A stretch of 64,000 nt of DNA from the IMG/VR virus record IMGVR_UViG_3300032307_000705, positions 1 through 64,000 of that record. One strand, 5' to 3'. Source of the DNA: a virus. A program made the translations under genes and the position numbers. The notes below the pieces were generated by a model. That model worked only from the letters and a program-made list of their open reading frames with translations, did no database searches and had not been told where the DNA came from. Positions within the stretch are counted from its first letter, which is position 1. Every line of letters starts with the position of its first letter. Below are positions 543 through 63,315 of this stretch, piece after piece.

Positions 543-543
543 T

Positions 544-3670: not shown

Positions 3671-4078
3671 ATGGAGAAGAGAAAATACTTGCCAACACTT
3701 GCCGAGTTAATTGATAGACTCAGTATTTCACAATTAAAAGAAGTTTTTATTCCCGAACACAAAGAGGAATATGCTCAAGAAATTAGAGACATCGAACACG
3801 ACATTGATTTGATTCTTAAAGAACATAATGGTGTTATTGACGCAAAGACCGTGAGGTCTATTGTTGTTTTAGCCCAAACAAACTTACACATTTGGCACAA
3901 CGAGTCCAACTATCGTAAGGGAATCAAAGAAGGTAATAATTTGGAGTTGACACACGGATTAAACGGAGTTCGTAATACCGCAAAAAATAGAATACAAGAA
4001 ATTGTAGGTGGTAGAAAAGACTATAAAACTGATTGTTTGGCTGCGGAGTTTAAGGATTGGGGTATCAGTTGGGAGTAA
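3671..4078 (+). CDS. hypothetical protein (DUF6165-like helical protein)
   Basis: [14 protein letters not shown]-terminus, N..IW..E, N..R..AKN.I. Confidence 0.5.
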
Positions 4079-4088
4079 ACTAAGTAAT

Positions 4089-4700
4089 ATGTTAGATAGA
4101 GTTACACAGGAATTGAACGAACAGGGATATTCTGTAATCGATAATTTTTTGCCCAATGATTATGCGAATAATTTACATGAGTTATTTGTTAATGCGAGCA
4201 CGTGGGAAAAAAACTTACAGAAAAGAGAAAACCATTATTCACACGTATTCAAAACCGAGTCACCCACACTACCAAATGAAACAGAAGTTTATACTTCAAG
4301 TTTTAGTAGGTCTTCTGATTTAGAGAAAGATGATTACATATCGAAAATATTCGAAGATTACTTTGTTGATACCCTTGAAAAAGTATCACCATTTATCTTG
4401 AATCAATTTGACATTAGATGTTATAAACTTGATAGTGGTGACCATTACAGGATGCATATGGACGACTACGCAGGAAAAATTAATTTAATCTATTATGTAA
4501 ACAAAGAATGGATTTGGGACTGGGGTGGTATTCTTAACATTTGTTCTGAGGTAGATGAAGAGTTTAATCAACAAATTTTCCCTAAATTCAATAGAGTTGT
4601 ACTCTTGAATAATAAAGTTTTCAGACAACCACACTTTGTTAGCACTGTCCAAGATTATGCTAAAACACCAAGATTCAGTATAGTATCATTTAATAAGTAA
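4089..4700 (+). CDS. 2OG-Fe(II) oxygenase (prolyl-4-hydroxylase-like)
   Basis: HMD, NLIYYVN..W..DWGG.L, PKFNR.V, H, PRFSI; start moved to ATG 4089 to avoid overlap. Confidence 0.8.
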
Positions 4701-5352: not shown

Positions 5353-5361
5353 TTGAAGATT

Positions 5362-6549
5362 ATGAAGTATTTTAATTTATTGTTTGATAGTAATATCGAA
5401 AACGAAAAGGAACATATTTTTAACACTTTGACTGCTAACAAAGTTGACGAGATTAAAATGATTGATATTAATAATTTTGAGATTGACTCCGAACAAAAAT
5501 ATTATTCATTTACAATAACAGGAACTTATATGGAAAATTTCCAATCACTTCCTGCGTCCTCAAAAGTAAAAGAGTTAATGAAATCGTACTCCAATTGCTT
5601 TCTTGTTATTTTAGCGGAACATGAGTCCGACAATGGAAACGTAATAAAACTTATTGAAAAATATTGTAATGAAGAATCGATTAATTCGAATCAGGTAATT
5701 GCAATCAATGGAAATCAGAAAATAAAAAAATTAATCAATGAGTTAGATAGTAAAGTTGTTGGACATACTTCAAATAGGTTACCTTATGTGGCGGTCGAAG
5801 GAATGACCTCATTCAAGTACGAATTTCAAAAAGACAAAGAATCATTTTTTATGTGCTATAACAGAATGTTAAAACCACATAGAGTGTCTCTGTTGGCGTT
5901 ACTGAAAAGAGAAGGGATATTAGATGAAGTTGATTGGACAATGTTACGTGGTAATGAATTGAATGAACGATTCTCCGATCCAGATGGAACACCATCATTC
6001 AATTTATTTTTTGAAGTTTTTGATAGAGACGACTTCAAAGAATATTATAATGAAATATTATTTCTTCAAAAATCAGGGGTTAAAAAAAGTAGGTTTGAAG
6101 AAGAATATAGAGTTGACCAACCACCTTACTTCATTGACTTTTATAAAACATATGAAATGAATCCTTATAGAAATTCATATGTTAATATTGTTACCGAAAC
6201 TGGTTACATATCCACAGATGTAATTCATATTACGGAAAAATCATTGATGCCAATTTATTATTCTCAAATTCCTTTGATATTGGCTAATTTTGAACATAAT
6301 AAGTTCTTGAAAGAAAGATATGATTTTGATTTGTTTGAGGATATTATTGATTATTCTTATGACAATGAAAAAGACCCGAGAAAACGGATTTTTATGTTTG
6401 TTGATGAAGTGAAAAGATTAAATTCTATCAAAGACGAAATAATTAATTTTTATAAAAATAATCAGGAAAGATTTGAACTTAATAAGAAAAAAGTTACAAG
6501 TATATTACAAGATGATACCGATTACAAGTTTTTCAAAAGTTTAATATAA
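5362..6549 (+). CDS. hypothetical protein, possible GT10-like glycosyltransferase
   Basis: CYNR..KPHR, VNIVTET...ITEKS..PI....P, FDLF.DIIDYSYD; paralog of 1490-2665; ends KSLI. Confidence 0.45.
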   Translation: MKYFNLLFDSNIENEKEHIFNTLTANKVDEIKMIDINNFEIDSEQKYYSFTITGTYMENFQSLPASSKVKELMKSYSNCFLVILAEHESDNGNVIKLIEKYCNEESINSNQVIAINGNQKIKKLINELDSKVVGHTSNRLPYVAVEGMTSFKYEFQKDKESFFMCYNRMLKPHRVSLLALLKREGILDEVDWTMLRGNELNERFSDPDGTPSFNLFFEVFDRDDFKEYYNEILFLQKSGVKKSRFEEEYRVDQPPYFIDFYKTYEMNPYRNSYVNIVTETGYISTDVIHITEKSLMPIYYSQIPLILANFEHNKFLKERYDFDLFEDIIDYSYDNEKDPRKRIFMFVDEVKRLNSIKDEIINFYKNNQERFELNKKKVTSILQDDTDYKFFKSLI

Positions 6550-7076
6550 TGGAATACAAAGATTCATTAACAATCGCAATGACAAAGTTAGGAAAAATGG
6601 ATAATACTATTTTTCTTGGGCAACAGATATTATTTCCGGGAAACCCGATGAGTTCAACTTTGGTCGATGTTCCAAAAGAAAAAATGATTGAATTACCGGT
6701 GATGGAAGATTCTCAAATGGGAATGTCTTTGGGTATGGCAATGACAGGGAAATTTGTGATTACATTTTATCCGAGATGGGACTTTTTGATTTGCGCTGCT
6801 AATCAATTAATAAACCATGTTGATAAGATGGAATTAATGAGTAATGGTCAGTGGAAACCAAATATGATTATTAGAGTCGGTAAAGGATCGGAAATACCTT
6901 TGAATCCAGGCCCTCAACACAGAAATAATTATTTCAAAGAGTTTCAGTCAATAACTCACACAATAAAATTCTTTGATTGTTTGACTGCGGATGATGTTAA
7001 AACCGCTTATGGCCACGCAATAAATGAGGGAGGGATAACCTTAATTAATGAATATCCCGAAAAATACAATTCATAA
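6549..7076 (+). CDS. TPP-dependent enzyme, E1 beta/transketolase pyrimidine-binding subunit (no C-terminal domain)
   Basis: IELPVMEDSQMG.S.G.A..G, DFL..A.NQL.N, GPQH. Confidence 0.8.
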   Translation: MEYKDSLTIAMTKLGKMDNTIFLGQQILFPGNPMSSTLVDVPKEKMIELPVMEDSQMGMSLGMAMTGKFVITFYPRWDFLICAANQLINHVDKMELMSNGQWKPNMIIRVGKGSEIPLNPGPQHRNNYFKEFQSITHTIKFFDCLTADDVKTAYGHAINEGGITLINEYPEKYNS

Positions 7077-8743
7077 TGTACGTACTTGGCATTTCATCTT
7101 TTTATCACGATTCATCCGCCTGTCTATTCAAAGACGGGGAGTTGGTGTTTGCTTGTGAAGAGGAAAAATTTACGGGAATTAAACATGATAGTTCTTTTCC
7201 AATTAATACAATTGAATACATCTTTAGTCATTATAGTATAACTTATGATGATATTGAAATGGTGTGTTATTATGAGGACCTCAATCTGAAACTAAAAAGA
7301 GTATTGAGTAACATCAAGAAAAACTTTTTTAGATCACCAAAATATTCTTTGAAATCTTTAGTTAAAATCTTGAAAAATATCTCAGATGTAAATAAACATT
7401 TGAGACCATTTAAGGGAAGAGTATTTTACTCCGAACACCATTTGGCTCATCAGTATTATTCTTTTTTCACTTCCGATTTTGAAAGGGCTATCTGTTTGTC
7501 TATTGATGGTGTTGGTGAAATTGATACCTTGTCTTTTGGGTTAGCGGATGATGATGGAATTGAATATCATGATTTGGGGAAATATCCACATTCATTAGGT
7601 CTTTATTATTCTACAATGACTTCTTATTTGGGGTTCAAACCAAATGAGGGGGAATATAAATTAATGGGATTAGCATCATACGGAGACCCGCAAGAGTATA
7701 TTGAAAAAGTTAGAAGTTTAATAGAATTCAAAGAGGGAGAATTAATCTGTGATATGAATGTTTTTTGTTGGGATAAGTCAGAAAAATTGATGTTCAACGA
7801 AAAACTAATAGAGCATTTAGGGATTTCACCAAGATTAACTGAAGAAGAAATTACTACAATTCATCAAAATTTAGCAGCGGCAGTTCAACTAAGATACGAA
7901 GAAGTTTTATTCGATATTATCAGAAGTTTGAAAAATCTTGGTAGTAATAATCTATGCTTAGGAGGTGGTTCGGCATATAATGGTACTGCGAATGGGAAGA
8001 TAGTATCCAATTCGGATTTTGAAAAAATTTGGATACCAGTTGCTCCATCTGACGCTGGATCCTGTGTTGGCGCTTGTATTCATTACCTTGTACAAAATAA
8101 AAAATTAACAAAAAGAGTTACCAAGAATCCTTTTTTGGGACCAAAGTACGATGTTGAATTTTATTTGGGTCACATTAAAAATTTGAACTTTTTTGAAATT
8201 CACGATTACAATAGATTAATAAAATACGTTGCAGAAAAAATACATGAGGGTAAAGTAGTTGGGTGGTATAGAGATAGAATCGAATTCGGAGCAAGAGCAT
8301 TAGGACATAGGTCTATTTTAGCCGACCCTACAGTTCCTGATATGAAATCCAGAATTAATAGATTGATTAAGAAAAGAGAAGGATTTCGTCCTTTTGCTCC
8401 TATGGTCACGAAAGAAAAACAACATAAGTTTTTTCATACGATTGATGATGTTCCATACATGAATCAAATTGTTAAAGTTAGAGAAGAATATGTTGATAAA
8501 TTATTAGCGGTTGTTCATGTGGACGGAACCTCAAGGATTCAAACTGTCTATAAAAATACTGTTATTCACGATTTATTAACTGAGTTTGAAAAACTAAGCG
8601 GATACCCAATTATATTGAATACATCCTTTAACATCAAAGATAAAACAATGGTACTGACTCCGTGTGATGCGATAGAAACCTTCAAGGACACTGACTTAGA
8701 TCTGTTAGTTTTGGATAATTATATAATACACAAAATACTATGA
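7076..8743 (+). CDS. O-carbamoyltransferase (NodU/CmcH family)
   Basis: LGIS..YHDSSA, EEEKFT.IKH, HH.AH, DGVGE, GEYKLMGLASYG, EFGARALGHRS, RE.FRPFAP, HVDGTSRIQT, LNTSFN. Confidence 0.92.
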   Translation: MYVLGISSFYHDSSACLFKDGELVFACEEEKFTGIKHDSSFPINTIEYIFSHYSITYDDIEMVCYYEDLNLKLKRVLSNIKKNFFRSPKYSLKSLVKILKNISDVNKHLRPFKGRVFYSEHHLAHQYYSFFTSDFERAICLSIDGVGEIDTLSFGLADDDGIEYHDLGKYPHSLGLYYSTMTSYLGFKPNEGEYKLMGLASYGDPQEYIEKVRSLIEFKEGELICDMNVFCWDKSEKLMFNEKLIEHLGISPRLTEEEITTIHQNLAAAVQLRYEEVLFDIIRSLKNLGSNNLCLGGGSAYNGTANGKIVSNSDFEKIWIPVAPSDAGSCVGACIHYLVQNKKLTKRVTKNPFLGPKYDVEFYLGHIKNLNFFEIHDYNRLIKYVAEKIHEGKVVGWYRDRIEFGARALGHRSILADPTVPDMKSRINRLIKKREGFRPFAPMVTKEKQHKFFHTIDDVPYMNQIVKVREEYVDKLLAVVHVDGTSRIQTVYKNTVIHDLLTEFEKLSGYPIILNTSFNIKDKTMVLTPCDAIETFKDTDLDLLVLDNYIIHKIL

Positions 8744-8856
8744 AAACAATTATTGATTGGTTTTTGAAAAAAATCAAAGATCGCAAACGGAAAAAAGAAT
8801 TAAAGAAGAAAATCGAAGAGTTGAAAAAAAGAGATCCTTTTATTTACAACCATTAA
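8740..8856 (+). CDS. 38-aa basic micro-protein ending RDPFIYNH
   Basis: Translated by hand: MKTIIDWFLKKIKDRKRKKELKKKIEELKKRDPFIYNH; ATGA overlap with the carbamoyltransferase stop. Confidence 0.6.
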   Translation: MKTIIDWFLKKIKDRKRKKELKKKIEELKKRDPFIYNH

Positions 8857-8884
8857 ATTTGATTATTAGATAATATGAATTTAT

Positions 8885-9379
8885 ATGGGAGTAATTAGAT
8901 TTACAACTGATGAATGTGCTAAAATTATTTCACTGTCAAATGTTTTTGAAAAACATTTATCAAGTGAATGGTGGGAGGGTAATCAGACCATATATTCAGC
9001 ATGGCATTTAGAAAGGAATGAAATGACTGAGTGGATTTTCGAAAGATTATTAACTTATCTCGAACAAAATACAAATATAGTCTTAAAACAACCTCTAAGT
9101 TTGATTCATTTACAAAATGTTCAAACTGGAAACAAGTTTGAACCTCATATAGATAAAAGGAGTGAATATAACGTAGGGGTTTGCCTTAATGATGATTACG
9201 GAGGTGGGGAACTCATATGTTATGAACCAAAAATTATCTTACCTAAAATTACTGGAAGTATATATACATTCTACGGTACTAAGGTTCATGAAGTTAAAGA
9301 AGTAACCTATGGAGAAAGATGGTCTTTAATCGCGTTTTTCGATAAAAATACGATTGATAGAAAGAAAAATTCAATATAG
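8885..9379 (+). CDS. 2OG-Fe(II) oxygenase
   Basis: F.PHID, LNDDY.GGEL, HEVKEVT.GERWSL. Confidence 0.85.
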   Translation: MGVIRFTTDECAKIISLSNVFEKHLSSEWWEGNQTIYSAWHLERNEMTEWIFERLLTYLEQNTNIVLKQPLSLIHLQNVQTGNKFEPHIDKRSEYNVGVCLNDDYGGGELICYEPKIILPKITGSIYTFYGTKVHEVKEVTYGERWSLIAFFDKNTIDRKKNSI

Positions 9380-9410
9380 ATAAATGCACTATGTATAAAA
9401 ATTTTTTCTA

Positions 9411-9418
9411 TATTTATA
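9411..9418 (+). promoter_or_regulatory. putative late promoter TATTTATA
   Basis: Recurrent intergenic motif, 17 nt before the ATG at 9436. Confidence 0.5.
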
Positions 9419-9435
9419 ATTGAACAAAAAATATT

Positions 9436-11718
9436 ATGAAAGGAACCTTATTTTCGGCTGACTTTGTCAAAGACTCAGATGGCAATTTGAGATTGTTAGA
9501 ATTAAACACTGATACAGGATTTATTAAACAAGAATTACAAAATTTCGATTTTTCTCAGTTCGAACAAATGTTAGAGGATAATAATATTTCTGAACTAGAT
9601 ATCATATATAAACCGGATCTCCATGAATATTTTGTAAACCAATTATTATCTTCTCTATCACTTGAAATTCCTGTAAACTTACATAAAGAAGATAATACTA
9701 CAATATATCCAACGCAAGTTACAAATTCTGATAATAGATTTATTTTAAGATTAGCGTATGATGAATCCGCTTTATTTGATAGTGAATATTGTAAAAATAG
9801 ATTGAATGTGTTCAATTTATTTACTGATAATTCCATAAATGATTATTGTGTTGGATATTATCATTCATCATCATCGGGAGTAAAAAATACTCTTACAAAG
9901 GAGATAAATCCAAATAATATACCCGATGCTACTATAAAAGATGTAGATGAATCACACAATCCAATTGATTTCTTCAAAATAGGTTCTCAAAATGAAAATG
10001 AATCAGTCGAAGACCGGTGGAACAACTTTATTAGTGAAAATGATACAGAAGATAAATTGATAGAACAATATCACTTTCACCCATCTAGTGTTGATGTAAA
10101 CAATCACATAACATCATATAGATTTTTTGGAATAGTGTATGGGTCTAATTTGGAAGTAGTAACTTTACACACTTACAAAATTAGTTCAATATTCGATTTA
10201 CCAATTGATTTAACATCTGAAATAGTTGAGAACAACTACACAAACAAAATTCCTGATTTCCATTACTACGAGTTTGCAACTAACTTATTCAGGGGTGATT
10301 CTTCAGGAATATTATCAACTCATGAAATTTTAACTGACGAAAACACTTATAAACCGATATCAGAATTTGTTGTCGGAGATTATGTGAAATCGTACTATGT
10401 ATCTCGTTCTCTTGAAGACAAGTTGAATCTTGATTTTACTTTTCCAACTGACACACCACCAAATGGATCATATCTTACATCATCGGTTGTCGTTTATAAA
10501 GCAATCGAAAATTTAACATATAATAGTATGTTCGAATTAAAAGTAGATAATGATTCTTTTTTCTGTGGAGTGAATAAACCATTTTTGGTTTTTGATTCTG
10601 ATTCTAATACTAGCTCATTTAAGCAAGTACATAAAATAAAACCAGGAATAGATTATCTATACGATATTGATAGTAATATGGTTGGCATAGATGAATTGAA
10701 TTTCTATGTGTCCACCGACAATAATTTAAGTTATATCGAACTGGATGTTGAAGATACCGATACCTATATTATAAATGGATCTACCTCAATCCATTCGATA
10801 GTTTCTCATAATTCTCCTTGTTTTGTTGCGGGTACACAAATTTTGTTAGAAAATGGACTTACAAAAAATATTGAAGATGTAGTTGTAGGTGAATATGTAA
10901 TGTCATTTGATTTGAAAAATAACGAATCGAAAGTTAGTAAAGTTCTAAATATTTTTTCTAAAAAAATCGACAAGATTGTTGAATATGAATTTTCGGATGG
11001 AAGTACTTTGAAAGCAACATTAGATCATCCAATTTATGTTATAGATAAAGGATGGGTCAACTATTTAGGTGAACCAGAACAATATAATAATATTTCATTT
11101 GACGGAATCAAACCGGCCAAAAAACTGGAAGTAGAAAAAATACAAATCGGTGATAGTGTAAAATTACATAATGGAGATATTAAATTGATTAATATGAATG
11201 TAATAGAAGAATCCACAATCGTATATAATTTATCAGAAATTGAAAAATACCATACATATTTTGCTAATAATGTATTAGTTCATAATTTTAGACCAGTTCT
11301 TATCTGTTTTACGGCTGAAACTAAAGTGAAAATGGAAGATGGTAGTTTCAAAAAAATTGTTGATATCGAAATCGGAGATTATGTTTTAAGTTACAAGGAT
11401 GGTAAATACGTAAGAGGTGTCGTGACTGATAAATTAATACACCCAATGAATTCAATAATTGAAGTTGTTAAATATAAAGGAATGACCGCCGATAGGTTAC
11501 ATCCATTTTATGATAACGGAGAATGGAAACCAATTTGTGAAGCTAAGGGAGTTGAATTTGATGTTCAATATGTAGATAATTTTTATAATTTAGAAGTAGA
11601 TGGTGATGTTTTATTTGAAAGTGATCATAATTTTATAGTAGAGGATTTTGTGGTTTCTGGTTTAGGAGATAATGAATTACTTAATACAACATTCAAAAGA
11701 CAAGCAGTTTTTCAATAA
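9436..11718 (+). CDS. circularly permuted ATP-grasp-like domain fused to three tandem Hint (intein-like) domains
   Basis: N-terminal ADFVKDSDGNLRLLELNTDTG, later IKD, IEQY, YR; Hint blocks CFVAGT..I....K.IEDV.VG.YV, T.DHP, VYNL..HTYFAN.VLVHN. Confidence 0.75.
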   Translation: MKGTLFSADFVKDSDGNLRLLELNTDTGFIKQELQNFDFSQFEQMLEDNNISELDIIYKPDLHEYFVNQLLSSLSLEIPVNLHKEDNTTIYPTQVTNSDNRFILRLAYDESALFDSEYCKNRLNVFNLFTDNSINDYCVGYYHSSSSGVKNTLTKEINPNNIPDATIKDVDESHNPIDFFKIGSQNENESVEDRWNNFISENDTEDKLIEQYHFHPSSVDVNNHITSYRFFGIVYGSNLEVVTLHTYKISSIFDLPIDLTSEIVENNYTNKIPDFHYYEFATNLFRGDSSGILSTHEILTDENTYKPISEFVVGDYVKSYYVSRSLEDKLNLDFTFPTDTPPNGSYLTSSVVVYKAIENLTYNSMFELKVDNDSFFCGVNKPFLVFDSDSNTSSFKQVHKIKPGIDYLYDIDSNMVGIDELNFYVSTDNNLSYIELDVEDTDTYIINGSTSIHSIVSHNSPCFVAGTQILLENGLTKNIEDVVVGEYVMSFDLKNNESKVSKVLNIFSKKIDKIVEYEFSDGSTLKATLDHPIYVIDKGWVNYLGEPEQYNNISFDGIKPAKKLEVEKIQIGDSVKLHNGDIKLINMNVIEESTIVYNLSEIEKYHTYFANNVLVHNFRPVLICFTAETKVKMEDGSFKKIVDIEIGDYVLSYKDGKYVRGVVTDKLIHPMNSIIEVVKYKGMTADRLHPFYDNGEWKPICEAKGVEFDVQYVDNFYNLEVDGDVLFESDHNFIVEDFVVSGLGDNELLNTTFKRQAVFQ
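10306..10812 (+). other. Hint domain 1 (no N-terminal Cys, intact C-terminal HN, +1 Ser)
   Basis: GILSTHEILT...KPISEFVVGDYVKS aligns with block A with Gly at position 1; ends ELDVEDTDTYII...IVSHN|S. Confidence 0.6.
10819..11286 (+). other. Hint domain 2 (complete: Cys1, TxxH, HN)
   Basis: CFVAGTQI...ATLDHPIY...VYNL.EIEKYHTYFANNVLVHN|F. Confidence 0.85.
11305..11661 (+). other. Hint domain 3 (Cys1 present, terminal HN replaced by SG)
   Basis: CFTAETKV.MEDG..K.I.DI.IGD.V, LHPF, FYNLEV...HNFIVEDFVVSG. Confidence 0.75.
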
Positions 11719-11749
11719 AATTAATTTTAATAAATAAAAATAAATAATT

Positions 11750-11902
11750 ATGGATATAGATAAACACCCACCTCTATATAAAAAAAAGTCAATAAATGAT
11801 GTAAATAATAGAACTACATCTCAACTGACAACTGAACAAAAACAAAGAGTTCAAGTTGTAATCAATAAATTTTTTGAATTATTTATTGCAAAACATTCAT
11901 AA
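11750..11902 (+). CDS. 50-aa hypothetical micro-protein
   Basis: Translated by hand: MDIDKHPPLYKKKSINDVNNRTTSQLTTEQKQRVQVVINKFFELFIAKHS; fills the gap after the Hint gene and has an A-rich leader. Confidence 0.55.
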   Translation: MDIDKHPPLYKKKSINDVNNRTTSQLTTEQKQRVQVVINKFFELFIAKHS

Positions 11903-11936
11903 TAAAATATTAAAATGAAAATCTAATATATAAGTT

Positions 11937-12326
11937 ATGATATATTTTAGATATAGATTTAACACACGAGGTGTTGGGATTGTATCAAATAGTCAAATAG
12001 TGAAAGACACTTATATAGGGAATTGTGCCTCTAAGTTTGAAACTATAACAAAAGAGAACAGAATAATTTATAACGGGTGGATTGAAACGAACCCATTAGG
12101 TAGATACATAAATCATAATAGAACCCCAAATTGTAAAGTAATTTTGGATGGTGATACTGTTAAGTTGTATTCGATGAATAATATTGATATGTGGGAAGAA
12201 CTTACAGTAAATTATTTAGATTTTGCAAATGTAATTGAAATGCCTGAAAATTTGTTAGAAAAATTTGGAATAAGAGATTTCGATTACATTCCTGAGACAA
12301 TAAAAGTAGAAACTAAATTAATATAG
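11937..12326 (+). CDS. SET-domain methyltransferase
   Basis: GVG, GRYINHN..PNC, I...EELTVNY (NHxxxPN and ELxxxY SET motifs). Confidence 0.8.
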   Translation: MIYFRYRFNTRGVGIVSNSQIVKDTYIGNCASKFETITKENRIIYNGWIETNPLGRYINHNRTPNCKVILDGDTVKLYSMNNIDMWEELTVNYLDFANVIEMPENLLEKFGIRDFDYIPETIKVETKLI

Positions 12327-12362
12327 AATTTTTTTGTTTGGAATAGAATATCATATTATTAG

Positions 12363-12884
12363 ATGCAAGCCGTTATTCAAAAAAAATTATTTAATAAAGA
12401 TGAATGTGATTATTTCAAATCATTGTCTGACGATAAATCGTTTCAACGAGAACACAGTAAACTTCTAATTCTATCGGAACATAGAACTTGGACTGAGTCA
12501 GTGATAGATTTGAATTATGATTTATCAAATATAATATTGGAGAAATTAAAAGAATTTGGAATTGTAAGTTTACCCAAATTTTTTGTAATTCTAAAATATA
12601 TTAAGGGCCAAGAATTAAAAAGACATAATGATACTGCCCTACAATATCCAAACAGATATAAAACTTTGATAATACAACTTTCAAATGAAACCGATTATGA
12701 TGGTGGAGAACTATGCATTTTTCAAAATGGTAAAACTACTATCTCATCAAAAGAAATCGGGAATGTTATAATGTTTGATTCGTCTATAGATCATTGCGCT
12801 AATAAAATTAAGGATGGCATACGATATAGTATGGCTTTTTGGCTATCTATAGATAATTTTGGATTAAATAAATCTCTAGTATAA
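12363..12884 (+). CDS. 2OG-Fe(II) oxygenase
   Basis: KY..G..LKRHND, IQLS..DYDGGEL, FDS..DH....I.DG.RYS. Confidence 0.85.
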   Translation: MQAVIQKKLFNKDECDYFKSLSDDKSFQREHSKLLILSEHRTWTESVIDLNYDLSNIILEKLKEFGIVSLPKFFVILKYIKGQELKRHNDTALQYPNRYKTLIIQLSNETDYDGGELCIFQNGKTTISSKEIGNVIMFDSSIDHCANKIKDGIRYSMAFWLSIDNFGLNKSLV

Positions 12885-12939
12885 CATTGAATTCAATTTA
12901 TGTGTATAGTGATAAAGGTTTATTGAACGATGAATCATT

Positions 12940-14007
12940 ATGATTGAAAAATCAAAATATATTTGTGAAGTTCCATTCACATCCTTAGAGATTCATGACC
13001 ATCAAAGATTTTTATGTTGTGCATCTTGGTTAACTAAATTTTTACCTGATGATACTAAACCAAACGAAGCATGGAATTCCGAGGAAGCGAATGACATTCG
13101 AAATAGTATATTAGACGGTTCATATAGGTATTGTGATGATAAACAATGCCCGTTTTTACACCAATTAAATACATTTGGTGATGTTGGTAGAATACAGCCT
13201 ATCTACCATAAAGATAAACTAACCCCCGAGTTAAAATTAAAAATAGAAAAACATAAAGAAGGTAAATTAACATCACCACAGATAGTTCAATTTTCGATGG
13301 ATAGGAGTTGTAACCTTGAGTGTCCCTCATGTAGATTGGAGATGATTATTGCTGATAGCAAAAAAATTAAAAAAGTAAAACAAGATATACAAGATATTGA
13401 AGACTCATTTGGAAGTGAAGTTAATACACTATACATAACGGGTAGTGGAGACCCATTTGTGTCAGTTGGTTTTAGAGATTTTTTAAGAAATTTTGATAAA
13501 TCTAAATGGCCAAAATTGAAAACAATTCACTTACATACTAATGCAACACGTTGGACTAAGGAAATGTGGGAATCGATGCCAAACATACATCAATATGTTA
13601 AAAGTTGTGAAATTAGTGTCGATGCTGGAACTAAAGAAACCTATGAAACAAAAACAAGAATAAACGGTGATTGGGATTTATTAGTAGATAACTTGAAGTT
13701 TATCTCTACAATACCAACTTTAAGGAGTATAAAAACTTCGTTTGTAGTCCAACAAAAAAATTATAAAGAAATGAAGTTATTCTACGATTTAATGTATTCT
13801 ATTTTTGGTGAAAAGGTAAATGTGTTTTTCGGTAAAATAACTAATTGGGGTACATTTAGTGAAGATGATTTTTTATTAGAACAAATTTGGAATGAATCTC
13901 ATCCGGAGTATAACGAATTTATAAAAGAAGTTAATTCTTTCTTGCCAAACAATTATAGTTGGAGTAATTTACAAGAATTTATCACACCTGTTAAAACTTT
14001 AATATGA
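12940..14007 (+). CDS. radical SAM protein with N-terminal SPASM/twitch-like Cys domain
   Basis: CNLECPSC (CxxxCxxC), ITGSGDPF, HTNA, ISVDA; N-terminal C..PF...CC..W...WNS..A..IR...C....CP. Confidence 0.85.
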   Translation: MIEKSKYICEVPFTSLEIHDHQRFLCCASWLTKFLPDDTKPNEAWNSEEANDIRNSILDGSYRYCDDKQCPFLHQLNTFGDVGRIQPIYHKDKLTPELKLKIEKHKEGKLTSPQIVQFSMDRSCNLECPSCRLEMIIADSKKIKKVKQDIQDIEDSFGSEVNTLYITGSGDPFVSVGFRDFLRNFDKSKWPKLKTIHLHTNATRWTKEMWESMPNIHQYVKSCEISVDAGTKETYETKTRINGDWDLLVDNLKFISTIPTLRSIKTSFVVQQKNYKEMKLFYDLMYSIFGEKVNVFFGKITNWGTFSEDDFLLEQIWNESHPEYNEFIKEVNSFLPNNYSWSNLQEFITPVKTLI

Positions 14008-14570
14008 TTATTACAATATTGAGTGAGCCGAGATCTGGAAGTACTAATTTATTATTTTGGTTAGGGCAACATAATGAATGTACCGTACTTCTTGAACCAA
14101 CAACTAATTCTGAATATAAAAAATATTCAGATAAAGAAGTGGTTATAAATGAAATCAATGATTTTAATACGTGGAAATATTTGACAAAACATTTAGTTAT
14201 TAAAGAAATTTGTGAACCAAATAAAAATTATGAAACTATACTCCAACATTCTGATAAAGTTATAATTTTATTTAGAGAAAATTATATTGAACAAAAAGAG
14301 TCTTGGTTAATGTCAATAAACACAAAAAAATGGGGAGGAGAATATTTTTTGGATGAATCGTTATTATTGGATAGTAATGACAATTATTTAATTGAAATCA
14401 AAAAAGAAATCGAGAAATATAAAAATTCAAATAATTTTGTAATTTCTTACGAAGAATTGTATTTCAATAATGGAATTAAAAAATTAATTAATTACATTGG
14501 TATTGAAGAATTAAATGAAAATAAATTTCCTTATGGACAAAAATATCGAAAATACAAGGTAGTGATATAA
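14004..14570 (+). CDS. sulfotransferase-family protein
   Basis: PRSGST 5'-PSB loop, EP, I.L.REN...Q..S, ISYEEL. Confidence 0.7.
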   Translation: MIITILSEPRSGSTNLLFWLGQHNECTVLLEPTTNSEYKKYSDKEVVINEINDFNTWKYLTKHLVIKEICEPNKNYETILQHSDKVIILFRENYIEQKESWLMSINTKKWGGEYFLDESLLLDSNDNYLIEIKKEIEKYKNSNNFVISYEELYFNNGIKKLINYIGIEELNENKFPYGQKYRKYKVVI

Positions 14571-14646
14571 CATAAATCAATAATATGGTGATAAAAAACA
14601 CACATTTTTGGTATTAATCAACTATTATTTAATTGATTTAATTTTT

Positions 14647-15456
14647 ATGAAAAAAACATATTATCCATCTTTGAATACATTAAAATATTGGACTCCTGAA
14701 GGATTTGAAATTTCAAGTTATAAATGGAATTTGTCGGAGAAAGTTAATCAATCGTATGACACATCTGGATCTGATAAAACTAAATTGTGTACCTATACTT
14801 ATAATGAATTGGGATTTAGGGGAGATTCGGTATCAAAGGAAGGGTTCAAAATCATGAGTATTGGAGATTCAAATACAGAAGGTGTCGGGGTTAACAATGA
14901 TGAAACATGGCCGGCACAATTTTCTAAATTAATACCTAACGGAGTGAATCATAACTTTGGTATGGGTGGGAGAAGTAATGATTATATATCAAGATGTTTG
15001 ATAACATATTACGATTTTATCAAACCTGACTTAGTCTTGATTATGTATACGTCACCACAAAGAAGAGAACTTTATACTAAAGACGGTGGATTAGAACCCT
15101 TCATGATAACCTCACAGTGGGGGTATACAGAAGAAACTGAAGAAGGCAGAGAAGTTCAACAAAGTTTAACTACAATACAAAACGACTATGCAGATTTTAT
15201 GAATTGGTATAAGAATCACCTTTTAATAAAATATTTTTTGGAATCCAAGAAGTGTAATTGGTTGTGGAATGGATGGTATGAAGTACCTCTGATATATGAG
15301 GAATTTAATCGGTTTGATGGATTATATGGTAAATTTGTGGATGATGCTGTTGACTTTATTCATCCAGGCCCTTTACACAATAAAATTTATGCTAAAAACT
15401 TGATGGACCACATATACACAAACTTTAGAAGTTATGTACCAAATAATTTGATTTAA
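14647..15456 (+). CDS. SGNH/GDSL hydrolase-family protein (possible acyltransferase)
   Basis: YN.LGFRG, IGDSNTEGVG, NFGMGG.SN, D..HPG; ATG at 14647 preferred over TTG at 14608. Confidence 0.75.
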   Translation: MKKTYYPSLNTLKYWTPEGFEISSYKWNLSEKVNQSYDTSGSDKTKLCTYTYNELGFRGDSVSKEGFKIMSIGDSNTEGVGVNNDETWPAQFSKLIPNGVNHNFGMGGRSNDYISRCLITYYDFIKPDLVLIMYTSPQRRELYTKDGGLEPFMITSQWGYTEETEEGREVQQSLTTIQNDYADFMNWYKNHLLIKYFLESKKCNWLWNGWYEVPLIYEEFNRFDGLYGKFVDDAVDFIHPGPLHNKIYAKNLMDHIYTNFRSYVPNNLI

Positions 15457-16127
15457 TTTCTATTATCAATATATATCATAATTTCGTTATAATAAGGAAT
15501 AAAGTTTTCATTCCATATTGACCAAGTAATATCAATTCCATCAAAAGAATAAACTTTGAAATTAGGGAAAAATCTTAAATAAACATCTCTGAATATTCTG
15601 AACTTTTCTTTCATCCATCCTTCTCTTAAATGCCATTCACCTGAAATTTTTCTCACATTATTTTTAATCCAAAATAAATTTTCCAATGTGAAAATATCGT
15701 ATTCACCAGTTTCACAGTCAGTTTTCAAGAAATCAATTTTTTTGATGTTGTAATCTTTGATTACCTTATTGAATGTAGTTGAATAGAGTTTATGGCCACC
15801 TGAAACATCAAATACTTCAGAAAATTCAAATTCTCCGATAGCGTTGGTTATGCCTTTATTAATATGAGTAACATTTCCATGTCTTGTATTCAAAACTAAT
15901 GTTTTGAATTCTTCGAAACTTGGTTCAAAGGCAAAAACCTGTGAAGGATTTTTGTGTAAGATAGAATAGGTGAATGGGCCAAGACTAGCTCCAATATCAA
16001 ACACTACATCTCCCTCCTCGACTTCGAAGAATCTTTCATAAATTTTATCCACGAAAATTTCTTTTTCGACGGTTTCTCGGAATCCTTCATAACATTTAGG
16101 TTCCCAAACAAAGTTTTCTAAGTTCAT
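15453..16127 (-). CDS. FkbM-family methyltransferase
   Basis: VFDIGASLGPF, AFEP, IDFLKTDCE.GEY; ATGA overlap with the upstream gene stop. Confidence 0.85.
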   Translation of the reverse strand: MNLENFVWEPKCYEGFRETVEKEIFVDKIYERFFEVEEGDVVFDIGASLGPFTYSILHKNPSQVFAFEPSFEEFKTLVLNTRHGNVTHINKGITNAIGEFEFSEVFDVSGGHKLYSTTFNKVIKDYNIKKIDFLKTDCETGEYDIFTLENLFWIKNNVRKISGEWHLREGWMKEKFRIFRDVYLRFFPNFKVYSFDGIDITWSIWNENFIPYYNEIMIYIDNRN

Positions 16128-19100
16128 TTTAATAAGTGTTGTATTTGATTTATTACCATTTCTGGTGTTATTGATGTATGACATTCAAATTGTCGGTTTG
16201 TTCCTTTGTGGACTGGACACCAATTCCAGTCTCCTTTATCGAATTTATATATAGGACTATTCCAACACCCGTTGCAAACATTTGGATTTGTAATTCTTGT
16301 ACAGTTAGAGGTAAATTCGTGGTCAGGTTCTGTGAAATTACTAATCATTACAACGTGTTTACCCATTGCCCAAGATAACCAAGATAGTCCACTTGATAAA
16401 CCAATAAAGAATTCACTGTGATGGATTACATTCATTGTATAATCCATCGCAATGTCTTTTATTTTTTCACAGTTGTCGAATCGATTATCTTCTTTAGATA
16501 CATTGATAACTTTATATCCGAGAGAATGAAGATAATTTATAAGACCTTGCCATCCCTCTTTTGTCCAAAACTTACACCCTGCGGTTGAGTTGGTTGCAAT
16601 TGTTACATATTTCTCTTCATAAGGTCTTTCAATAATTTTATAAGAGATTCTTGGTTTAATCTCTTTATATGGTAACCCCAATATGTTTGTCGCAGCTTGT
16701 TGTAAAGGGATTGTGTTTGGGGTAATGGGTTCTTTTTTGATATCATAGTACCATCCAATATTGTATTGACCAAATATATTATAAACAACACTTCCTGGTT
16801 CAACAAATTCTAATTCAGGATACACTTCACGGAATAAATGGTTCCAATATGTTGAAACAACTACCTCGCATTTGTGGGTATTTTTGAATTCTAAAACATA
16901 AGGTATCCATGATATTGTATCCCCCAAAGAACTGCTGTCAAAATTTATAAAAACACGTTTCCCCTCATAATTTAGAGTTTCATCATATATTAAAACCCCA
17001 TCTTCAAGAACTTTTGTATTCCATTTTGTAAAATATTGCCGATTTAATTTAACCCAATGATTTGTTTTTATTTTATTATGATAATGGCAGATATCGAATT
17101 CATCAAAGAATTTTATATCATATTCGCTATTACTTTCTCCGATAATTTCTAAAAATGGTTCATTTATGAAAAATTGTTTAATGTTTACTTTGGTACTATT
17201 TTTAGATTTCTTTCTTGGTTCTTGGGTTAATAAATAATTATAAAGATTATAATGTTTAACGGCAAATTCTTTAGTCATGCCATCTAAAATTTTATAGTCC
17301 CGACTTGATGAGATTAATCTGCGTAATGAATTTACATTTGAGAGTAAATCGTCCGTAAGAGGAGTGATTAAACCGTTGAACATTCCGACATATTGAGGTA
17401 AATCTCTTGCAATTATTTTCAACCCCAACGATGCCGCTTCACGTATCACAAGAGGATTACATTCCCAAGTTGAATTGAACATTAAAATATCTGAAGCTTT
17501 CATAAATGTTTCAACATCGTTTCTTTCTCCCCAAACTTTTACATTAGATGGTAGATTAGCCATTAAAGGCCCCCAATAACTTTCAAAGTTTGATGCTTGA
17601 TTTCCCACGAAATGGAATTCAACATTTGTATTTTCGAAATGTCTAGCAATTTCTATTCCCTCACCTTGATTTTTACCTGATGTCCAAAGTCCAACATTGA
17701 TAATATGTACCTTTGTGATATCTAACTCTAATTCTTCTTGTGCTCTAACTTGGTCTATACGAGTTCTAAATTTATTTTCTATTGGGTATTCAAAAACTTC
17801 TTGGTGAGATGGCATTCCTTTGAATGTCTTTTGTAAATGGTATGGAGTACACAAAGCGTACGCATCTGGATGAAAGTGTTTTGAGGACCCTGGGTCGAAC
17901 CAAATGTTATGGCATGTCTCAACCACTCTCCACGTTCTATCGTTGTCATAGAGGGCATGTTTAAGTTCGTCAGGTACTTTATTGAAAGAATCAAATCCTT
18001 CAATCATTTCATCAACATGTACAATATCTATGAAATGAGTTTTGAGAAGGTCAATCACTTTCATAGAGTTTTCAACCGTATGGTCATCCAAAGTGTTAAT
18101 AGTCCAAAATCTTTCTTCGGGGATTATTTGTTTTATTCTATCTCGTTGAACGGTGTATAGTGTTGAATATTGACAAAACTCAGCGAGAAAAAATTCTACG
18201 TCGGGATAATAGGATGAAATAGATTCGATTCTTTTTAATAAATAAGAGGGCATACCGCCTGTGGAAAGATGAGGAGCTAAATACAAAACCCTAAGTCTTT
18301 TTGGTTCAGATTTTGGAAAATATTCGCAGTCGGAATCGATCCAAGGAGAGTGTTCTAATAGTTGTTCAGCAATTGAAACATCTCCGATTTCAAATTTCAA
18401 TTTTTCTAAATCTTCCAATGCAATTTGATTAGTTAAAATTATAGGGTTATGATATTCTCTTTTTACTGACAAGTGATAATCTACGAATTTGAAGTCACCA
18501 CCTTGGATTAAATCTGATATTGAGACGATATGATTAGGAATACCATATGCATCCGATGCGATTAACCCATGTAAACTTGATGATAATATGTTTTCACATT
18601 CCAAAAGTTCATCTATGAACTCATATATTCCCGAAGTTATATTAATAATTTTAATACCTAAGTTTTCAATATTGTTAATTACCCTCAGTCCTTCTATAGT
18701 TGTGTAATCGGAGTAGTGGGGTATTAACCCATATTTATACTTTTTTTCTATTTTTGGGTTATATATTTTTGGAAAAAGTAATGCTGGATCACCATATATT
18801 TCAGGTACTTCCCACCCTTTTCTCATCAAAACTTCTCTTGTTTGTGGACCCCGAACCGCATATATTTTTTTAGGGATATCTCCGATACTATCATTGTCAA
18901 TACATCCTGTACCCCAGACATAATCATTAGGTTTGGTAAATCTTGTTAAACTACCCGTCCCAATAATTTTTCCATTTTTGAATGGAATTATACCCCGACT
19001 ATCAAAGTGAAAAACATCTTCATCATTTAATTTTTTTCCTGAAAAATGTTCCAAAATGAATTTGGTAATAATGTCTCCCCAATTTTTTGATGGGTCTATG

Positions 19101-20068
19101 TTTGGATATTCTCTAATCTCTTCGGAGGTGGTGTTATATTTTTTTATTTCTTTTACCATCTCTCTCATTAATTCAATATTTTTTTCTCCATGAAAAAACA
19201 AGAGATGTTCTTTATAATAAGGTACTCGTAACCAATTTCCATGAAAATTGAATGTGCCAGGTCCTTTGTATTCTAATTCATTATACATTTTGTTCACGGT
19301 CTCAACACTACCGTTAACATAGATATAAGGTAATCCCTCTTGAATATTATATTTCCAAAGCAAAACATTTGAGATTGTTTCTTCGTCGTATGGGGCATAA
19401 TGACTTATATTGTTTAGAATTTTCGGATGATTACACATCCAATACCATTCATCTAAAAAATCATATGTGTTTTGTCCTGCAACAAAATATCCTGTTTGTC
19501 TATAAAACTTTCTTACTGTTTGGTCAACATTGAATAGTTCGCATGCGTTGTGCTCGAGAGTGTCAGACCATCCACCTCCCAACGCGCCTCCACCACCTCT
19601 ACCATCGTATTTCAAAAATTCATATATCCCTTCAACAAAATAAGGGAATGCCGAGTCTTCTTTGAAATATGAGAATATGGTATCAATTAATGGAGTTGCA
19701 ACAGAATCACTATCGACGTAGCATACTGTGTTAGAATACTTCGATAGGGCATCTTTGATGACTAGTGGTCGTTGAATTAAAATCTTATAAATTGTTGGAT
19801 TTTTTCTATCAATATAGAAATTATTATTATTTTTAAGATAAAGTTCATTCGATAAATCATTAATTTGTAAGTCCCATCTTATTGTTTTGGTATTTGAGAC
19901 TTCAACTTGTTTGTCTGAGTTTATGAGATAGACTATAACAGGTAATTCACTGAATTCTCTAATAGATTTTACGCATTCGGTAAGAATATCAAAATAGTTT
20001 TCAGTTGAACACAAAACGAATGATTTATCGAATTTTGTTATATTTTCATTGGTGTTTGAATTATTCAT
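16124..20068 (-). CDS. four-domain glycosylation enzyme: GT-A-like + polysaccharide pyruvyltransferase + GT4-like + TibC/Aah-like O-heptosyltransferase
   Basis: YVDSD; NWGD..AVRGP.T..GDPALL..SSSLHGLI.SDAYGIP; APHLSTGGMP..KNQ..STWECNPLVIREA; SLGD.I.W..FIGLSSGLSWL.WA..ISNFT..EF..CNGCWN..WCP.H..FEC. Confidence 0.75.
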   Translation of the reverse strand: MNNSNTNENITKFDKSFVLCSTENYFDILTECVKSIREFSELPVIVYLINSDKQVEVSNTKTIRWDLQINDLSNELYLKNNNNFYIDRKNPTIYKILIQRPLVIKDALSKYSNTVCYVDSDSVATPLIDTIFSYFKEDSAFPYFVEGIYEFLKYDGRGGGGALGGGWSDTLEHNACELFNVDQTVRKFYRQTGYFVAGQNTYDFLDEWYWMCNHPKILNNISHYAPYDEETISNVLLWKYNIQEGLPYIYVNGSVETVNKMYNELEYKGPGTFNFHGNWLRVPYYKEHLLFFHGEKNIELMREMVKEIKKYNTTSEEIREYPNIDPSKNWGDIITKFILEHFSGKKLNDEDVFHFDSRGIIPFKNGKIIGTGSLTRFTKPNDYVWGTGCIDNDSIGDIPKKIYAVRGPQTREVLMRKGWEVPEIYGDPALLFPKIYNPKIEKKYKYGLIPHYSDYTTIEGLRVINNIENLGIKIINITSGIYEFIDELLECENILSSSLHGLIASDAYGIPNHIVSISDLIQGGDFKFVDYHLSVKREYHNPIILTNQIALEDLEKLKFEIGDVSIAEQLLEHSPWIDSDCEYFPKSEPKRLRVLYLAPHLSTGGMPSYLLKRIESISSYYPDVEFFLAEFCQYSTLYTVQRDRIKQIIPEERFWTINTLDDHTVENSMKVIDLLKTHFIDIVHVDEMIEGFDSFNKVPDELKHALYDNDRTWRVVETCHNIWFDPGSSKHFHPDAYALCTPYHLQKTFKGMPSHQEVFEYPIENKFRTRIDQVRAQEELELDITKVHIINVGLWTSGKNQGEGIEIARHFENTNVEFHFVGNQASNFESYWGPLMANLPSNVKVWGERNDVETFMKASDILMFNSTWECNPLVIREAASLGLKIIARDLPQYVGMFNGLITPLTDDLLSNVNSLRRLISSSRDYKILDGMTKEFAVKHYNLYNYLLTQEPRKKSKNSTKVNIKQFFINEPFLEIIGESNSEYDIKFFDEFDICHYHNKIKTNHWVKLNRQYFTKWNTKVLEDGVLIYDETLNYEGKRVFINFDSSSLGDTISWIPYVLEFKNTHKCEVVVSTYWNHLFREVYPELEFVEPGSVVYNIFGQYNIGWYYDIKKEPITPNTIPLQQAATNILGLPYKEIKPRISYKIIERPYEEKYVTIATNSTAGCKFWTKEGWQGLINYLHSLGYKVINVSKEDNRFDNCEKIKDIAMDYTMNVIHHSEFFIGLSSGLSWLSWAMGKHVVMISNFTEPDHEFTSNCTRITNPNVCNGCWNSPIYKFDKGDWNWCPVHKGTNRQFECHTSITPEMVINQIQHLLK

Positions 20069-63199: not shown

Positions 63200-63315
63200 A
63201 AAAGGACTTAAAAAGATAGAATGGTTCATTGATATCTATTTTGTTTGGATGTTGTATAGTCCAAGAAAATATGATAGATACAATGAATACATCGGAAAAA
63301 AGTGGGGTAAAAACA

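What the first reader, a model, noticed from the sequence alone, without database searches (positions are those of the whole stretch)
8885..15456. Shared C-terminal x-[LVS]-[IV] tail on six unrelated tailoring enzymes, matched by the Hint linker FRPVLI
Seen in sequence: the six enzymes around the Hint gene belong to five unrelated folds, yet end KKNSI (2OG), ETKLI (SET), NKSLV (2OG), VKTLI (radical SAM), YKVVI (sulfotransferase) and PNNLI (SGNH). In each the tail is a short extension past the catalytic domain. The GT-like protein at 5362 ends FKSLI. Among the roughly 60 other CDS only 58724 (VGII) ends similarly. N-terminal cleavage by Hint3 would create a new C-terminus ...FRPVLI, i.e. the same type of tail. 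Inference: a C-terminal recognition tag, used for docking on a scaffold or virion, as a degron, or as the carboxylate that the ATP-grasp domain activates for covalent conjugation. That would be an undescribed tag-directed enzyme assembly system.
Basis: partly seen in the sequence, partly recalled or inferred. Interest (0 to 1): 0.85.

Follow-up and report, generated by a model that had tools for sequence, protein, structure and literature searches.

The report
Shared C-terminal tag on phage enzymes
In this uncultured giant phage and its relatives, many unrelated small modifying enzymes next to one ligase/self-cutting protein end in the same four or five residues (about Lys-Ser/Thr-Leu-Ile), which selection keeps at the protein level and which looks like an undescribed address or docking label whose reader is unknown.

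Summary
All seven quoted endings are in the sequence. Seven of 11 genes at 5353-15456 end in [LVS][IV], against 5 of 104 elsewhere in the 83.7-kb record (Fisher 5e-6). Orthologues at 24-90% identity keep the ending while the residues before it vary. All 120 radical-SAM relatives end in a hydrophobic residue (I in 98). Of 150 representatives of the 2OG subfamily, 122 are tagged. Cultured-phage 2OG relatives end ...GPxF[RK] with no tag. Leu codons at -1 follow normal usage, so the selection acts on the protein. Families are bimodal: about 19 are 62-100% tagged and about 20 are 0%. No replication or structural family carries a conserved tag.

Consensus: [KN]-K-[KNST]-[LI]-[IL]-COOH.

Tagged genes form runs directly after a constant pair: a permuted ATP-grasp fused to Hint domains, and a 44-53-aa protein.

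The claimed match with the Hint linker FRPVLI is not conserved (RAPVVS, LRPPS, KVTTTTS, R) and looks coincidental.

The most likely reading is a docking or address tag. Earlier agents of this scan reported the same tag on other phage genomes.

The parts
6532..6546 (+). Tag FKSLI of the 398-aa GT-like protein (5353-6549)
   Evidence: The family is 67-83% tagged in relatives (FNKTLI, RNKRFI, LFWDLI). Two orthologues are extended to ...SLINFQ.
9362..9376 (+). Degenerate tag KKNSI of 2OG oxygenase 8885-9379
   Evidence: Pfam PF13640. Orthologues at 72% identity end KNKLV and KKKIF.
9436..11718 (+). Untagged constant core: permuted ATP-grasp-like domain (aa 1-287), Hint-A (aa 288-457, Gly at position 1), Hint-B (aa 459-612, starts Cys462), Hint-C (starts aa 619)
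   Evidence: Model of aa 1-612, pLDDT 85. Hint folds Z 20.4 and 22.4. N-domain against YgiC E 4e-5, and against glutathione synthetases. Hint-C from Pfam and sequence only. 56 distinct orthologues.
11272..11289 (+). Linker FRPVLI between Hint-B and Hint-C
   Evidence: Not conserved in orthologues: RAPVVS, RAPV, RQPVVS, LRPPS, KVTTTTS, R, RR, RA.
11750..11902 (+). p50: untagged 50-aa protein that always follows the Hint gene (invariant Tyr10, near-invariant Lys11, Phe41, His49; end ...KH[SLMT])
   Evidence: Present in 52 of 56 distinct Hint loci. Alignments A2 and A4.
12309..12323 (+). Tag ETKLI of SET-domain protein 11937-12326
   Evidence: PF00856. The separate SET145 family in relatives is 100% tagged.
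12867..12881 (+). Tag NKSLV of 2OG oxygenase 12363-12884
   Evidence: PF13640. Orthologues end NKSLI or TKSLI. 122 of 150 family representatives are tagged.
13990..14004 (+). Tag VKTLI of radical-SAM protein 12940-14007
   Evidence: In 120 homologues the last residue is I98/L12/F6/M2/V2, position -1 is L81/I30, and position -3 is K in 80.
14553..14567 (+). Tag YKVVI of the sulfotransferase-like protein 14004-14570
   Evidence: Orthologues in three other genomes end KNRNLI, KRDTLI and SKRSLI. Weak Sulfotransfer_3 hit.
15439..15453 (+). Tag PNNLI of SGNH/GDSL hydrolase 14608-15456 (true start probably the ATG at 14647)
   Evidence: Orthologues end PSSLI, PNSLI, PSRLI, YKKII and YNKLL. The tag is present although this is the last gene of the run, facing a convergent gene.

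Best explanation
The ending [KN]-K-[KNST]-[LI]-[IL]-COOH is a short linear recognition tag. It marks the interchangeable tailoring enzymes of a phage modification module: 2OG oxygenases, SET and class I methyltransferases, radical SAM, GDSL/SGNH, sulfotransferase-like, GT-like and several unknown families.

The constant core of the module is the permuted ATP-grasp-Hint protein and the adjacent 44-53-aa protein p50. I infer that a single receptor reads the free carboxylate, the two aliphatic residues and the upstream lysine. That receptor is most probably the core protein, alone or with p50. It would bring every tagged enzyme to the same substrate, which is possibly p50 itself or a peptide carried by the core.

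Shown: the tag exists, it is selected at the protein level, it is restricted to these enzyme families, and it is linked in the genome to the core.

For: Protein-level selection:
- The tail is kept at 24-90% identity while the preceding residues vary.
- Leu codons at -1 (TTA 66, TTG 17, CTT 14, CTA 11) mirror internal usage.
- The tag occurs whatever the distance to the next ORF, and also on the last genes of runs.

Specificity:
- Families are bimodal, 62-100% against 0%.
- Among 193 families shared by four genomes, 158 have no tail. The families that keep it across divergent orthologues are tailoring enzymes.
- The Phi-Phi criterion did not select positions -3 and -2, yet they carry information: K 52% at -3, and K/N/S/T 83% at -2.
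- Related 2OG enzymes of cultured phages end ...GPELR or ...GPKFR without the tag. Those phage records also show no match to the ATP-grasp domain.

Linkage to the core:
- In 56 distinct Hint loci, 61% of the first 8 ORFs after p50 are tagged, against 23% upstream.
- One locus has 17 tagged ORFs among the 19 after p50.

Strict terminality suggests that the carboxylate is read.
Against: No reader was identified.
- No PDZ or S41 domain was found in five genomes.
- Hsp20 is missing from the complete relative G001.
- One subclade keeps Hint-p50 without an adjacent tagged run, and some tagged genes lie far from the core. The coupling is therefore not obligatory in cis.
- Tag flavour is uniform across lineages, so no co-variation with a candidate reader could be sought.
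- Absence of the core from genomes that carry tagged enzymes could not be tested, because most contigs are fragments.
Confidence: 0.5

Rival explanations
1. Covalent handle. The ATP-grasp domain activates the tag's terminal carboxylate. Alternatively the conserved Lys at -3 accepts p50 or a Hint-generated thioester. Either way the tagged enzymes become covalently joined to a partner, in the manner of Pup, ubiquitin or the BUBL proteins.
For: The N-domain's best structural matches are ATP-grasp ligases that act on peptide C-terminal carboxylates: YgiC/YjfC and (homo)glutathione synthetase. Its E-x-N and several Lys/Arg/Asp residues are invariant in 57 sequences. Hint-B is closest to BIL2 of the Tetrahymena BUBL1 locus, Z 22.4. 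From my own knowledge, those BIL domains are proposed to conjugate a ubiquitin-like domain. The tag is strictly terminal and has a conserved Lys.
Against: There is no evidence of ligation. p50's last residue varies (S/L/M/T/G), unlike known modifiers. The Hint linkers vary freely. Joining enzymes covalently has no obvious benefit.
Confidence: 0.17
2. C-terminal degron. The basic-then-aliphatic ending is read by a host AAA+ protease, so that these enzymes are short-lived. Candidates are ClpXP (compare the MuA-type ending RRKKAI) and FtsH (non-polar tails).
For: The ending resembles basic-plus-hydrophobic C-terminal degrons (my own knowledge of ClpX C-motif 2, not tested). No phage-encoded reader was found.
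Against: A degron does not explain why only the tailoring enzymes clustered after Hint-p50 carry it, and no other early or auxiliary protein. It also does not explain why at least a dozen families acquired and kept it. The host is unknown.
Confidence: 0.15
3. Localisation signal that sends the enzymes into or onto the virion, an assembly site or the membrane, as encapsulin cargo-loading peptides or the HK97 protease tail do.
For: This would follow the known precedent of C-terminal targeting peptides on unrelated cargo enzymes of HK97-fold shells (papers listed; the rest is my own knowledge). The island borders glycosyltransferases and Pro/Thr-rich proteins that may be virion proteins.
Against: No structural or capsid family carries or accompanies the tag. 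The tail is polar and Pro-containing, not an amphipathic membrane helix. Earlier notes of this scan (not checked here) report that this genome appears to use N-terminal (I/L/V)xE leaders for capsid cargo.
Confidence: 0.1
4. No function: a by-product of AT-rich DNA or of translational-coupling sequence at gene ends.
For: C-termini in the relative G001 are generally enriched in K, I, L and N. Terminal Ile uses ATA in 74% of cases against 46% internally. Many tagged genes overlap the next start codon.
Against: The background in spurious ORFs is 5%. Families are bimodal. Codon choice at -1 is unconstrained. The tag is present with any intergenic gap. It is conserved over 122 clusters at 50% identity.
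Confidence: 0.02

Closest known systems
Peroxisomal targeting signal 1 (-[SAC]-[KRH]-[LM]-COOH, read by the TPR domain of Pex5)
   Same: A 3-5-residue ending with a basic and an aliphatic residue and an obligatory free carboxylate. It is shared by enzymes of unrelated folds as an address label.
   Different: The sequence and register differ: Lys sits at -3, followed by a polar residue and two aliphatic residues. This is a prokaryotic virus with no peroxisome, and no Pex5 was sought.
CIA targeting-complex recognition tripeptide [LIM]-[DES]-[WF]-COO- (Marquez et al., PMC10245660)
   Same: A C-terminal tripeptide is necessary and sufficient to recruit unrelated client proteins to one machine.
   Different: The motif differs (acidic and aromatic). 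That is a eukaryotic Fe-S delivery system. Here the clients are the enzymes, and the machine is unknown.
Class I/II PDZ ligands (x-[ST]-x-Phi-COOH; Phi-x-Phi-COOH)
   Same: The terminal aliphatic residue and the carboxylate are read. Ser or Thr is common at -2 (34%).
   Different: Position -1 is constrained here (L/I 88%) but free in PDZ ligands. K or N is as common as S or T at -2. No PDZ domain was detected in five phage genomes.
Encapsulin cargo-loading peptides and the HK97 protease capsid-targeting tail
   Same: Unrelated cargo enzymes share a short C-terminal peptide that docks on a common partner of viral origin.
   Different: There is no GSL-type motif. No shell gene was noticed in the island (no dedicated search). 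The tagged proteins are tailoring enzymes placed next to a ligase-Hint protein.
RiPP gene clusters (precursor peptide plus tailoring enzymes recruited through a leader/RRE)
   Same: A small conserved peptide gene (p50) sits beside an ATP-grasp and up to 17 tailoring enzymes: 2OG, radical SAM, methyltransferases and others.
   Different: The common recognition element sits on the enzymes (a 4-5-residue tail), not on the substrate, and no RRE was detected. That p50 is modified is only inferred.

Membership tests
PTS1 | Ending [SAC]-[KRH]-[LM]-COOH | tested here: not met
   Logo of 254 tails: -3 K 52%, -2 K/N/S/T 83%, -1 L/I 88%, 0 I/L 92%. The lysine is one position further from the end, and two aliphatic residues are required.
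PTS1 | Read by Pex5 in a cell that has peroxisomes | not testable with these tools
   The gene overlaps (ATGA) and the phage-type genes point to a bacterial virus. The host is unknown.
PDZ ligand | S/T or a hydrophobic residue at -2, a free -1, and a hydrophobic terminal residue | tested here: not met
   Position -2 is S/T in 34% and K/N in 49%. Position -1 is strongly constrained.
PDZ ligand | A PDZ-domain reader is present | tested here: inconclusive
   PF13180, PF17820 and PF03572 were not found in G000-G003 and G005. A host PDZ protein cannot be excluded.
ClpX C-motif-2 degron (MuA-like) | ClpX-dependent recognition or degradation through the basic-aliphatic C-terminus | not testable with these tools
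   Only a resemblance recalled from my own knowledge. The host and its proteases are unknown.
Encapsulin cargo-loading peptide | GSL-type motif in the C-terminal 10-20 residues | tested here: not met
   There is no Gly-Ser-Leu core in the logo.
Sliding-clamp-binding tail (QL[SD]LF type) | The motif is shared with replication proteins | tested here: not met
   No replication family among the 193 shared families keeps the tail. There is no conserved Gln or Phe.
sHSP IxI motif / alpha-crystallin groove | An Hsp20 reader co-occurs with the tagged proteins | tested here: not met
   Hsp20 is present in G002, G003 and G005 but absent from the complete G001 and from this record.
Hint/BIL domains (core protein) | Hint fold with Cys at position 1 and a terminal His-Asn | tested here: met
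   Hint-B: Z 22.4 to 6y75, with invariant Cys462. Hint-A: Z 20.4 to 2lwy, His458 (at least 90% conserved)-Asn459 (invariant), but Gly291 replaces the nucleophile, so only C-terminal cleavage is plausible there.
ATP-grasp ligase, permuted GspS/GS type (core protein) | ATP-grasp fold with the E-x-N metal site | tested here: inconclusive
   Foldseek YgiC E 4e-5, glutathione synthetases 1e-4, with low TM. E22-x-N24 is invariant. No Pfam or PDB sequence hit. The VIA table was filled by the Hint domains.
RiPP cluster | A precursor peptide modified by the neighbouring enzymes through leader recognition | not testable with these tools
   p50 is conserved and always adjacent. Modification cannot be shown in silico.

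The most novel reading that the evidence does not exclude
The tag is the handle of a phage-encoded protein-conjugation or plug-in system. The permuted ATP-grasp-Hint protein binds the tag. It may also activate the tag's free carboxylate, or load p50 onto the tag's lysine. Any enzyme that acquires the 4-5-residue ending would then be plugged, reversibly or covalently, onto one peptide substrate or scaffold. That would be a modular, tag-addressed enzyme assembly line with no described counterpart.
Probability: 0.25. Interest if true: 0.92.

Novelty: new variant of a known kind. Interest (0 to 1): 0.8.

Why it matters
A 4-5-residue ending acquired independently by a dozen or more enzyme families would be a minimal, transferable address label in viruses. 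It defines, from sequence alone, the full toolbox of an undescribed phage modification module. That module is widespread in uncultured aquatic jumbo phages: about 2,000 radical-SAM relatives, and at least 122 clusters (50% identity) of tagged 2OG enzymes. If the tag is portable, it could be used to recruit chosen enzymes to a scaffold.

Tried and rejected
- The search for related loci with the 2OG alignment failed for lack of a conserved stretch. The tagged/untagged against core present/absent table could not be built that way.
- DNA-level explanations were rejected: a shared DNA word, a promoter, or translational coupling.
- The Hint linker as a tag mimic was rejected.
- Phage-encoded readers were sought and not found: Peptidase_S41, PDZ_2 and PDZ_6.
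- Hsp20 was rejected because it is absent from G001 and from this record.
- DUF2061 (p70) and p78 are not universal.
- Co-variation of tag flavour with the core was abandoned because the flavour is uniform.
- The first N-domain model (13 sequences, pLDDT 61) was too weak. It was replaced by the 57-sequence model.
- A profile search of the N-domain against PDB sequences gave nothing.
- There was no nucleotide match in cultured phages, and no protein match there for the radical SAM or the N-domain.
- PHROGs did not identify the lineage.
- A stricter regular expression misses real tags such as ETKLI and was not used for the conclusions.
- Three literature searches found no description of the system.
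- ORFs were called by a greedy longest-ORF rule. Start codons may be wrong, but C-termini do not depend on them.
Full report
**Context.** The window is the first 64 kb of an 83.7-kb IMG/VR virus record, estimated 24% complete. Its closest complete relative is a 326-kb uncultured phage, G001. There is no nucleotide match in cultured phages. There is no protein match there for the radical SAM or for the N-domain of the Hint protein.

- 5353-6549: FKSLI
- 8885-9379: KKNSI
- 11937-12326: ETKLI
- 12363-12884: NKSLV
- 12940-14007: VKTLI
- 14004-14570: YKVVI
- 14608-15456: PNNLI

A third 2OG paralogue beyond the window (79717-80199) ends VSKLI. Pfam confirms 2OG-FeII_Oxy_3 and SET. It gives weaker support for radical SAM, GDSL/SGNH and sulfotransferase.

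The internal frequency of that dipeptide class in the same proteins is 4.3% (binomial 8e-8). Only 5.2-5.6% of spurious open frames in the same AT-rich DNA end that way.

**Is it selected, and at what level?**
- Thirty-three related viral loci show orthologues and paralogues at 24-90% identity that keep the ending while the residues before it change. Radical-SAM examples are EFITPVKTLI, EFILQKQNLI, EFIVANKNLI and HLYTTEKPLI.
- In the 120 best radical-SAM homologues (58-88% identity) the last residue is I 98, L 12, F 6, M 2, V 2. Position -1 is L 81 and I 30. Position -3 is K in 80.
- A profile search with the 2OG subfamily found 122 of the 150 best 50%-identity representatives tagged. The lowest-ranked untagged ones end ...GPxF[RK]. 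Cultured Synechococcus and Xanthomonas phage 2OG proteins end the same way...GPELR and ...GPKFR.
- Leu codons at -1 (TTA 66, TTG 17, CTT 14, CTA 11, CTC 3, CTG 1) follow normal usage. Only the terminal Ile shows a mild ATA excess.
- The tag occurs whether the next ORF overlaps (137), lies 0-20 nt away (85), 21-60 nt (31), more than 60 nt (15), or is absent or convergent (20).

The constraint therefore acts on the protein, not on a DNA or coupling signal.

**Which proteins carry it?** Clustering all ORFs of the related loci gives a bimodal picture.
- About 19 families are 62-100% tagged: several 2OG subfamilies, radical SAM, SET, two GDSL/SGNH families, a sulfotransferase-like family, the GT-like 5353 family and several families with no Pfam hit. 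A class I methyltransferase and a GT2-like protein are also tagged.
- About 20 families are 0% tagged: the Hint protein, p50, FkbM, the TPP beta subunit, a large glycosyltransferase and the APS-kinase cassette.
- The carbamoyltransferase (38%) and GT9 (40%) families have hydrophobic endings in some members, but these are not kept as orthologues diverge.
- Across this record and three near-complete genomes, 158 of 193 shared families never have the ending. No replication or structural family keeps it across divergent orthologues.
- A logo of 254 distinct tails gives [KN]-K-[KNST]-[LI]-[IL]-COOH. K reaches 52% at -3 and K/N/S/T reach 83% at -2. These positions were not used to select the tails.

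**Genomic architecture.** A scan with the N-domain alignment returned 80 loci with 56 distinct Hint proteins (35-83% identity).
- In 52 of them a 44-53-aa ORF, p50, follows immediately. It has an invariant Tyr10, near-invariant Lys11, Phe41 and His49, and an end of ...KH[SLMT].
- Of the first eight ORFs after p50, 61% are tagged, against 23% upstream.
- One locus has 17 tagged ORFs among the 19 after p50, and its Hint gene lies just upstream.
- One subclade keeps Hint-p50 but has unrelated, untagged genes downstream.

The core is therefore constant and the tagged toolbox is variable.

**The core protein.** With a 57-sequence alignment, residues 1-612 fold confidently (pLDDT 85).
- Residues 288-457 are a Hint domain (Z 20.4 to the C. 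thermocellum BIL). Gly replaces the first nucleophile, and the terminal His-Asn is retained.
- Residues 459-612 are a second Hint (Z 22.4 to BIL2 of the Tetrahymena BUBL1 locus) with an invariant Cys462.
- A third Hint starts at Cys619 (Pfam and sequence only).
- The N-domain's best structural matches are YgiC/YjfC and (homo)glutathione synthetases (E 4e-5 to 3e-4). These are ATP-grasp ligases. From my own knowledge, they act on peptide C-terminal carboxylates and some are circularly permuted. That fits the E-x-N motif at residues 22-24.
- This assignment is moderate. There is no Pfam or PDB sequence hit.

**The Hint-linker claim.** FRPVLI would indeed become a C-terminus if Hint-C cleaved at its N-terminal junction. 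The equivalent linkers in orthologues are RAPVVS, RAPV, RQPVVS, LRPPS, KVTTTTS, R, RR and RA, and many orthologues stop after one catalytic Hint (...VHNK). The resemblance to the enzyme tails is therefore specific to this genome and probably accidental.

**What reads the tag?** I could not find out.
- No Peptidase_S41 or PDZ domain is encoded in five genomes.
- An Hsp20 near the island in some relatives is absent from G001 and from this record.
- Tag flavour is uniform, so co-variation was not informative.

The tight linkage to Hint-p50, the restriction to tailoring enzymes and the strictly terminal position favour a docking or address tag read by the module's core (confidence about 0.5). Three readings remain open: covalent use of the tag by the ATP-grasp or the Hint chemistry (0.17), a host-protease degron (0.15) and a localisation signal (0.1). 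A compositional artefact is excluded.

**Comparison with known systems.** The nearest analogues are C-terminal address tags read through the free carboxylate:
- PTS1/Pex5
- the CIA targeting tripeptide (PMC10245660)
- PDZ ligands
- encapsulin cargo-loading peptides

The motif matches none of them (see the membership tests). Three searches of the held paper library found no description of this module.

**Earlier notes of this scan.** Follow-up agents reported the same tag around the same ATP-grasp-Hint gene in other phage genomes. My results agree with theirs, and I reached them before reading those notes. One note reports a complex model that places the tail in a groove of the ligase. I could not test that.

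Noticed in passing
window 63229-63980: DUF3310 protein (63229-63540) followed by an APS kinase (63537-63980; PF01583, E 1.5e-17). In relatives, the APS-kinase orthologues and the next small ORF lie immediately upstream of the Hint gene (L007, L024), or later in the same run of genes after it (L118). This would supply PAPS to the tagged sulfotransferase-like enzymes.
   Followed up: partly
window 132-3669: Nucleotide-sugar genes (NAD-dependent epimerase/dehydratase, GDP-mannose 4,6-dehydratase type) lie upstream of the island. Together with the TPP-enzyme subunits (4723, 6549), the carbamoyltransferase (7076), the 1314-aa multi-GT/pyruvyltransferase (16124-20068, minus strand), GT9 and FkbM, this is a glycan-building block. 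None of these has a conserved tag.
   Followed up: partly
window 21355-24660 and beyond: There are very long Pro/Thr-repeat proteins ([11 protein letters not shown]...), transcribed divergently from the glycosyltransferases. They are possible substrates of hydroxylation or glycosylation.
   Followed up: no
window 14608-14647: The SGNH gene probably starts at the ATG at 14647, not the TTG at 14608. All orthologues align from residue 14 onwards.
   Followed up: partly
window 4008-4700: A fourth 2OG oxygenase (Oxy_4/Oxy_3 type, 230 aa) at the edge of the island ends ...SFNK without a tag. Its only orthologue found also has no tag.
   Followed up: partly
window 11596-11718 (aa 721-760 of the Hint protein): After the third Hint, a peptide of roughly 30 residues (...SGLGDNELLNxTFKRQxxFQ) is conserved in the subset of orthologues that have this Hint. 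It would be released by C-terminal cleavage.
   Followed up: no
L007 3724-3933; L024 2257-2484; L028 12999-13208: A 69-75-aa DUF2061 predicted membrane protein sits next to the Hint gene in L007 and L024, and about 8 kb downstream of it in L028. No homologue was found in this record.
   Followed up: partly
L028 9947-14105: The flank of the module in the 202-kb relative carries Hsp20, UvdE endonuclease and peptide deformylase genes.
   Followed up: partly
record 74770-75114 (outside the window): A 114-aa protein ends VLRKLF and its G001 orthologue ends ILSKLF. It may be another tagged protein of unknown fold, far from the island.
   Followed up: no
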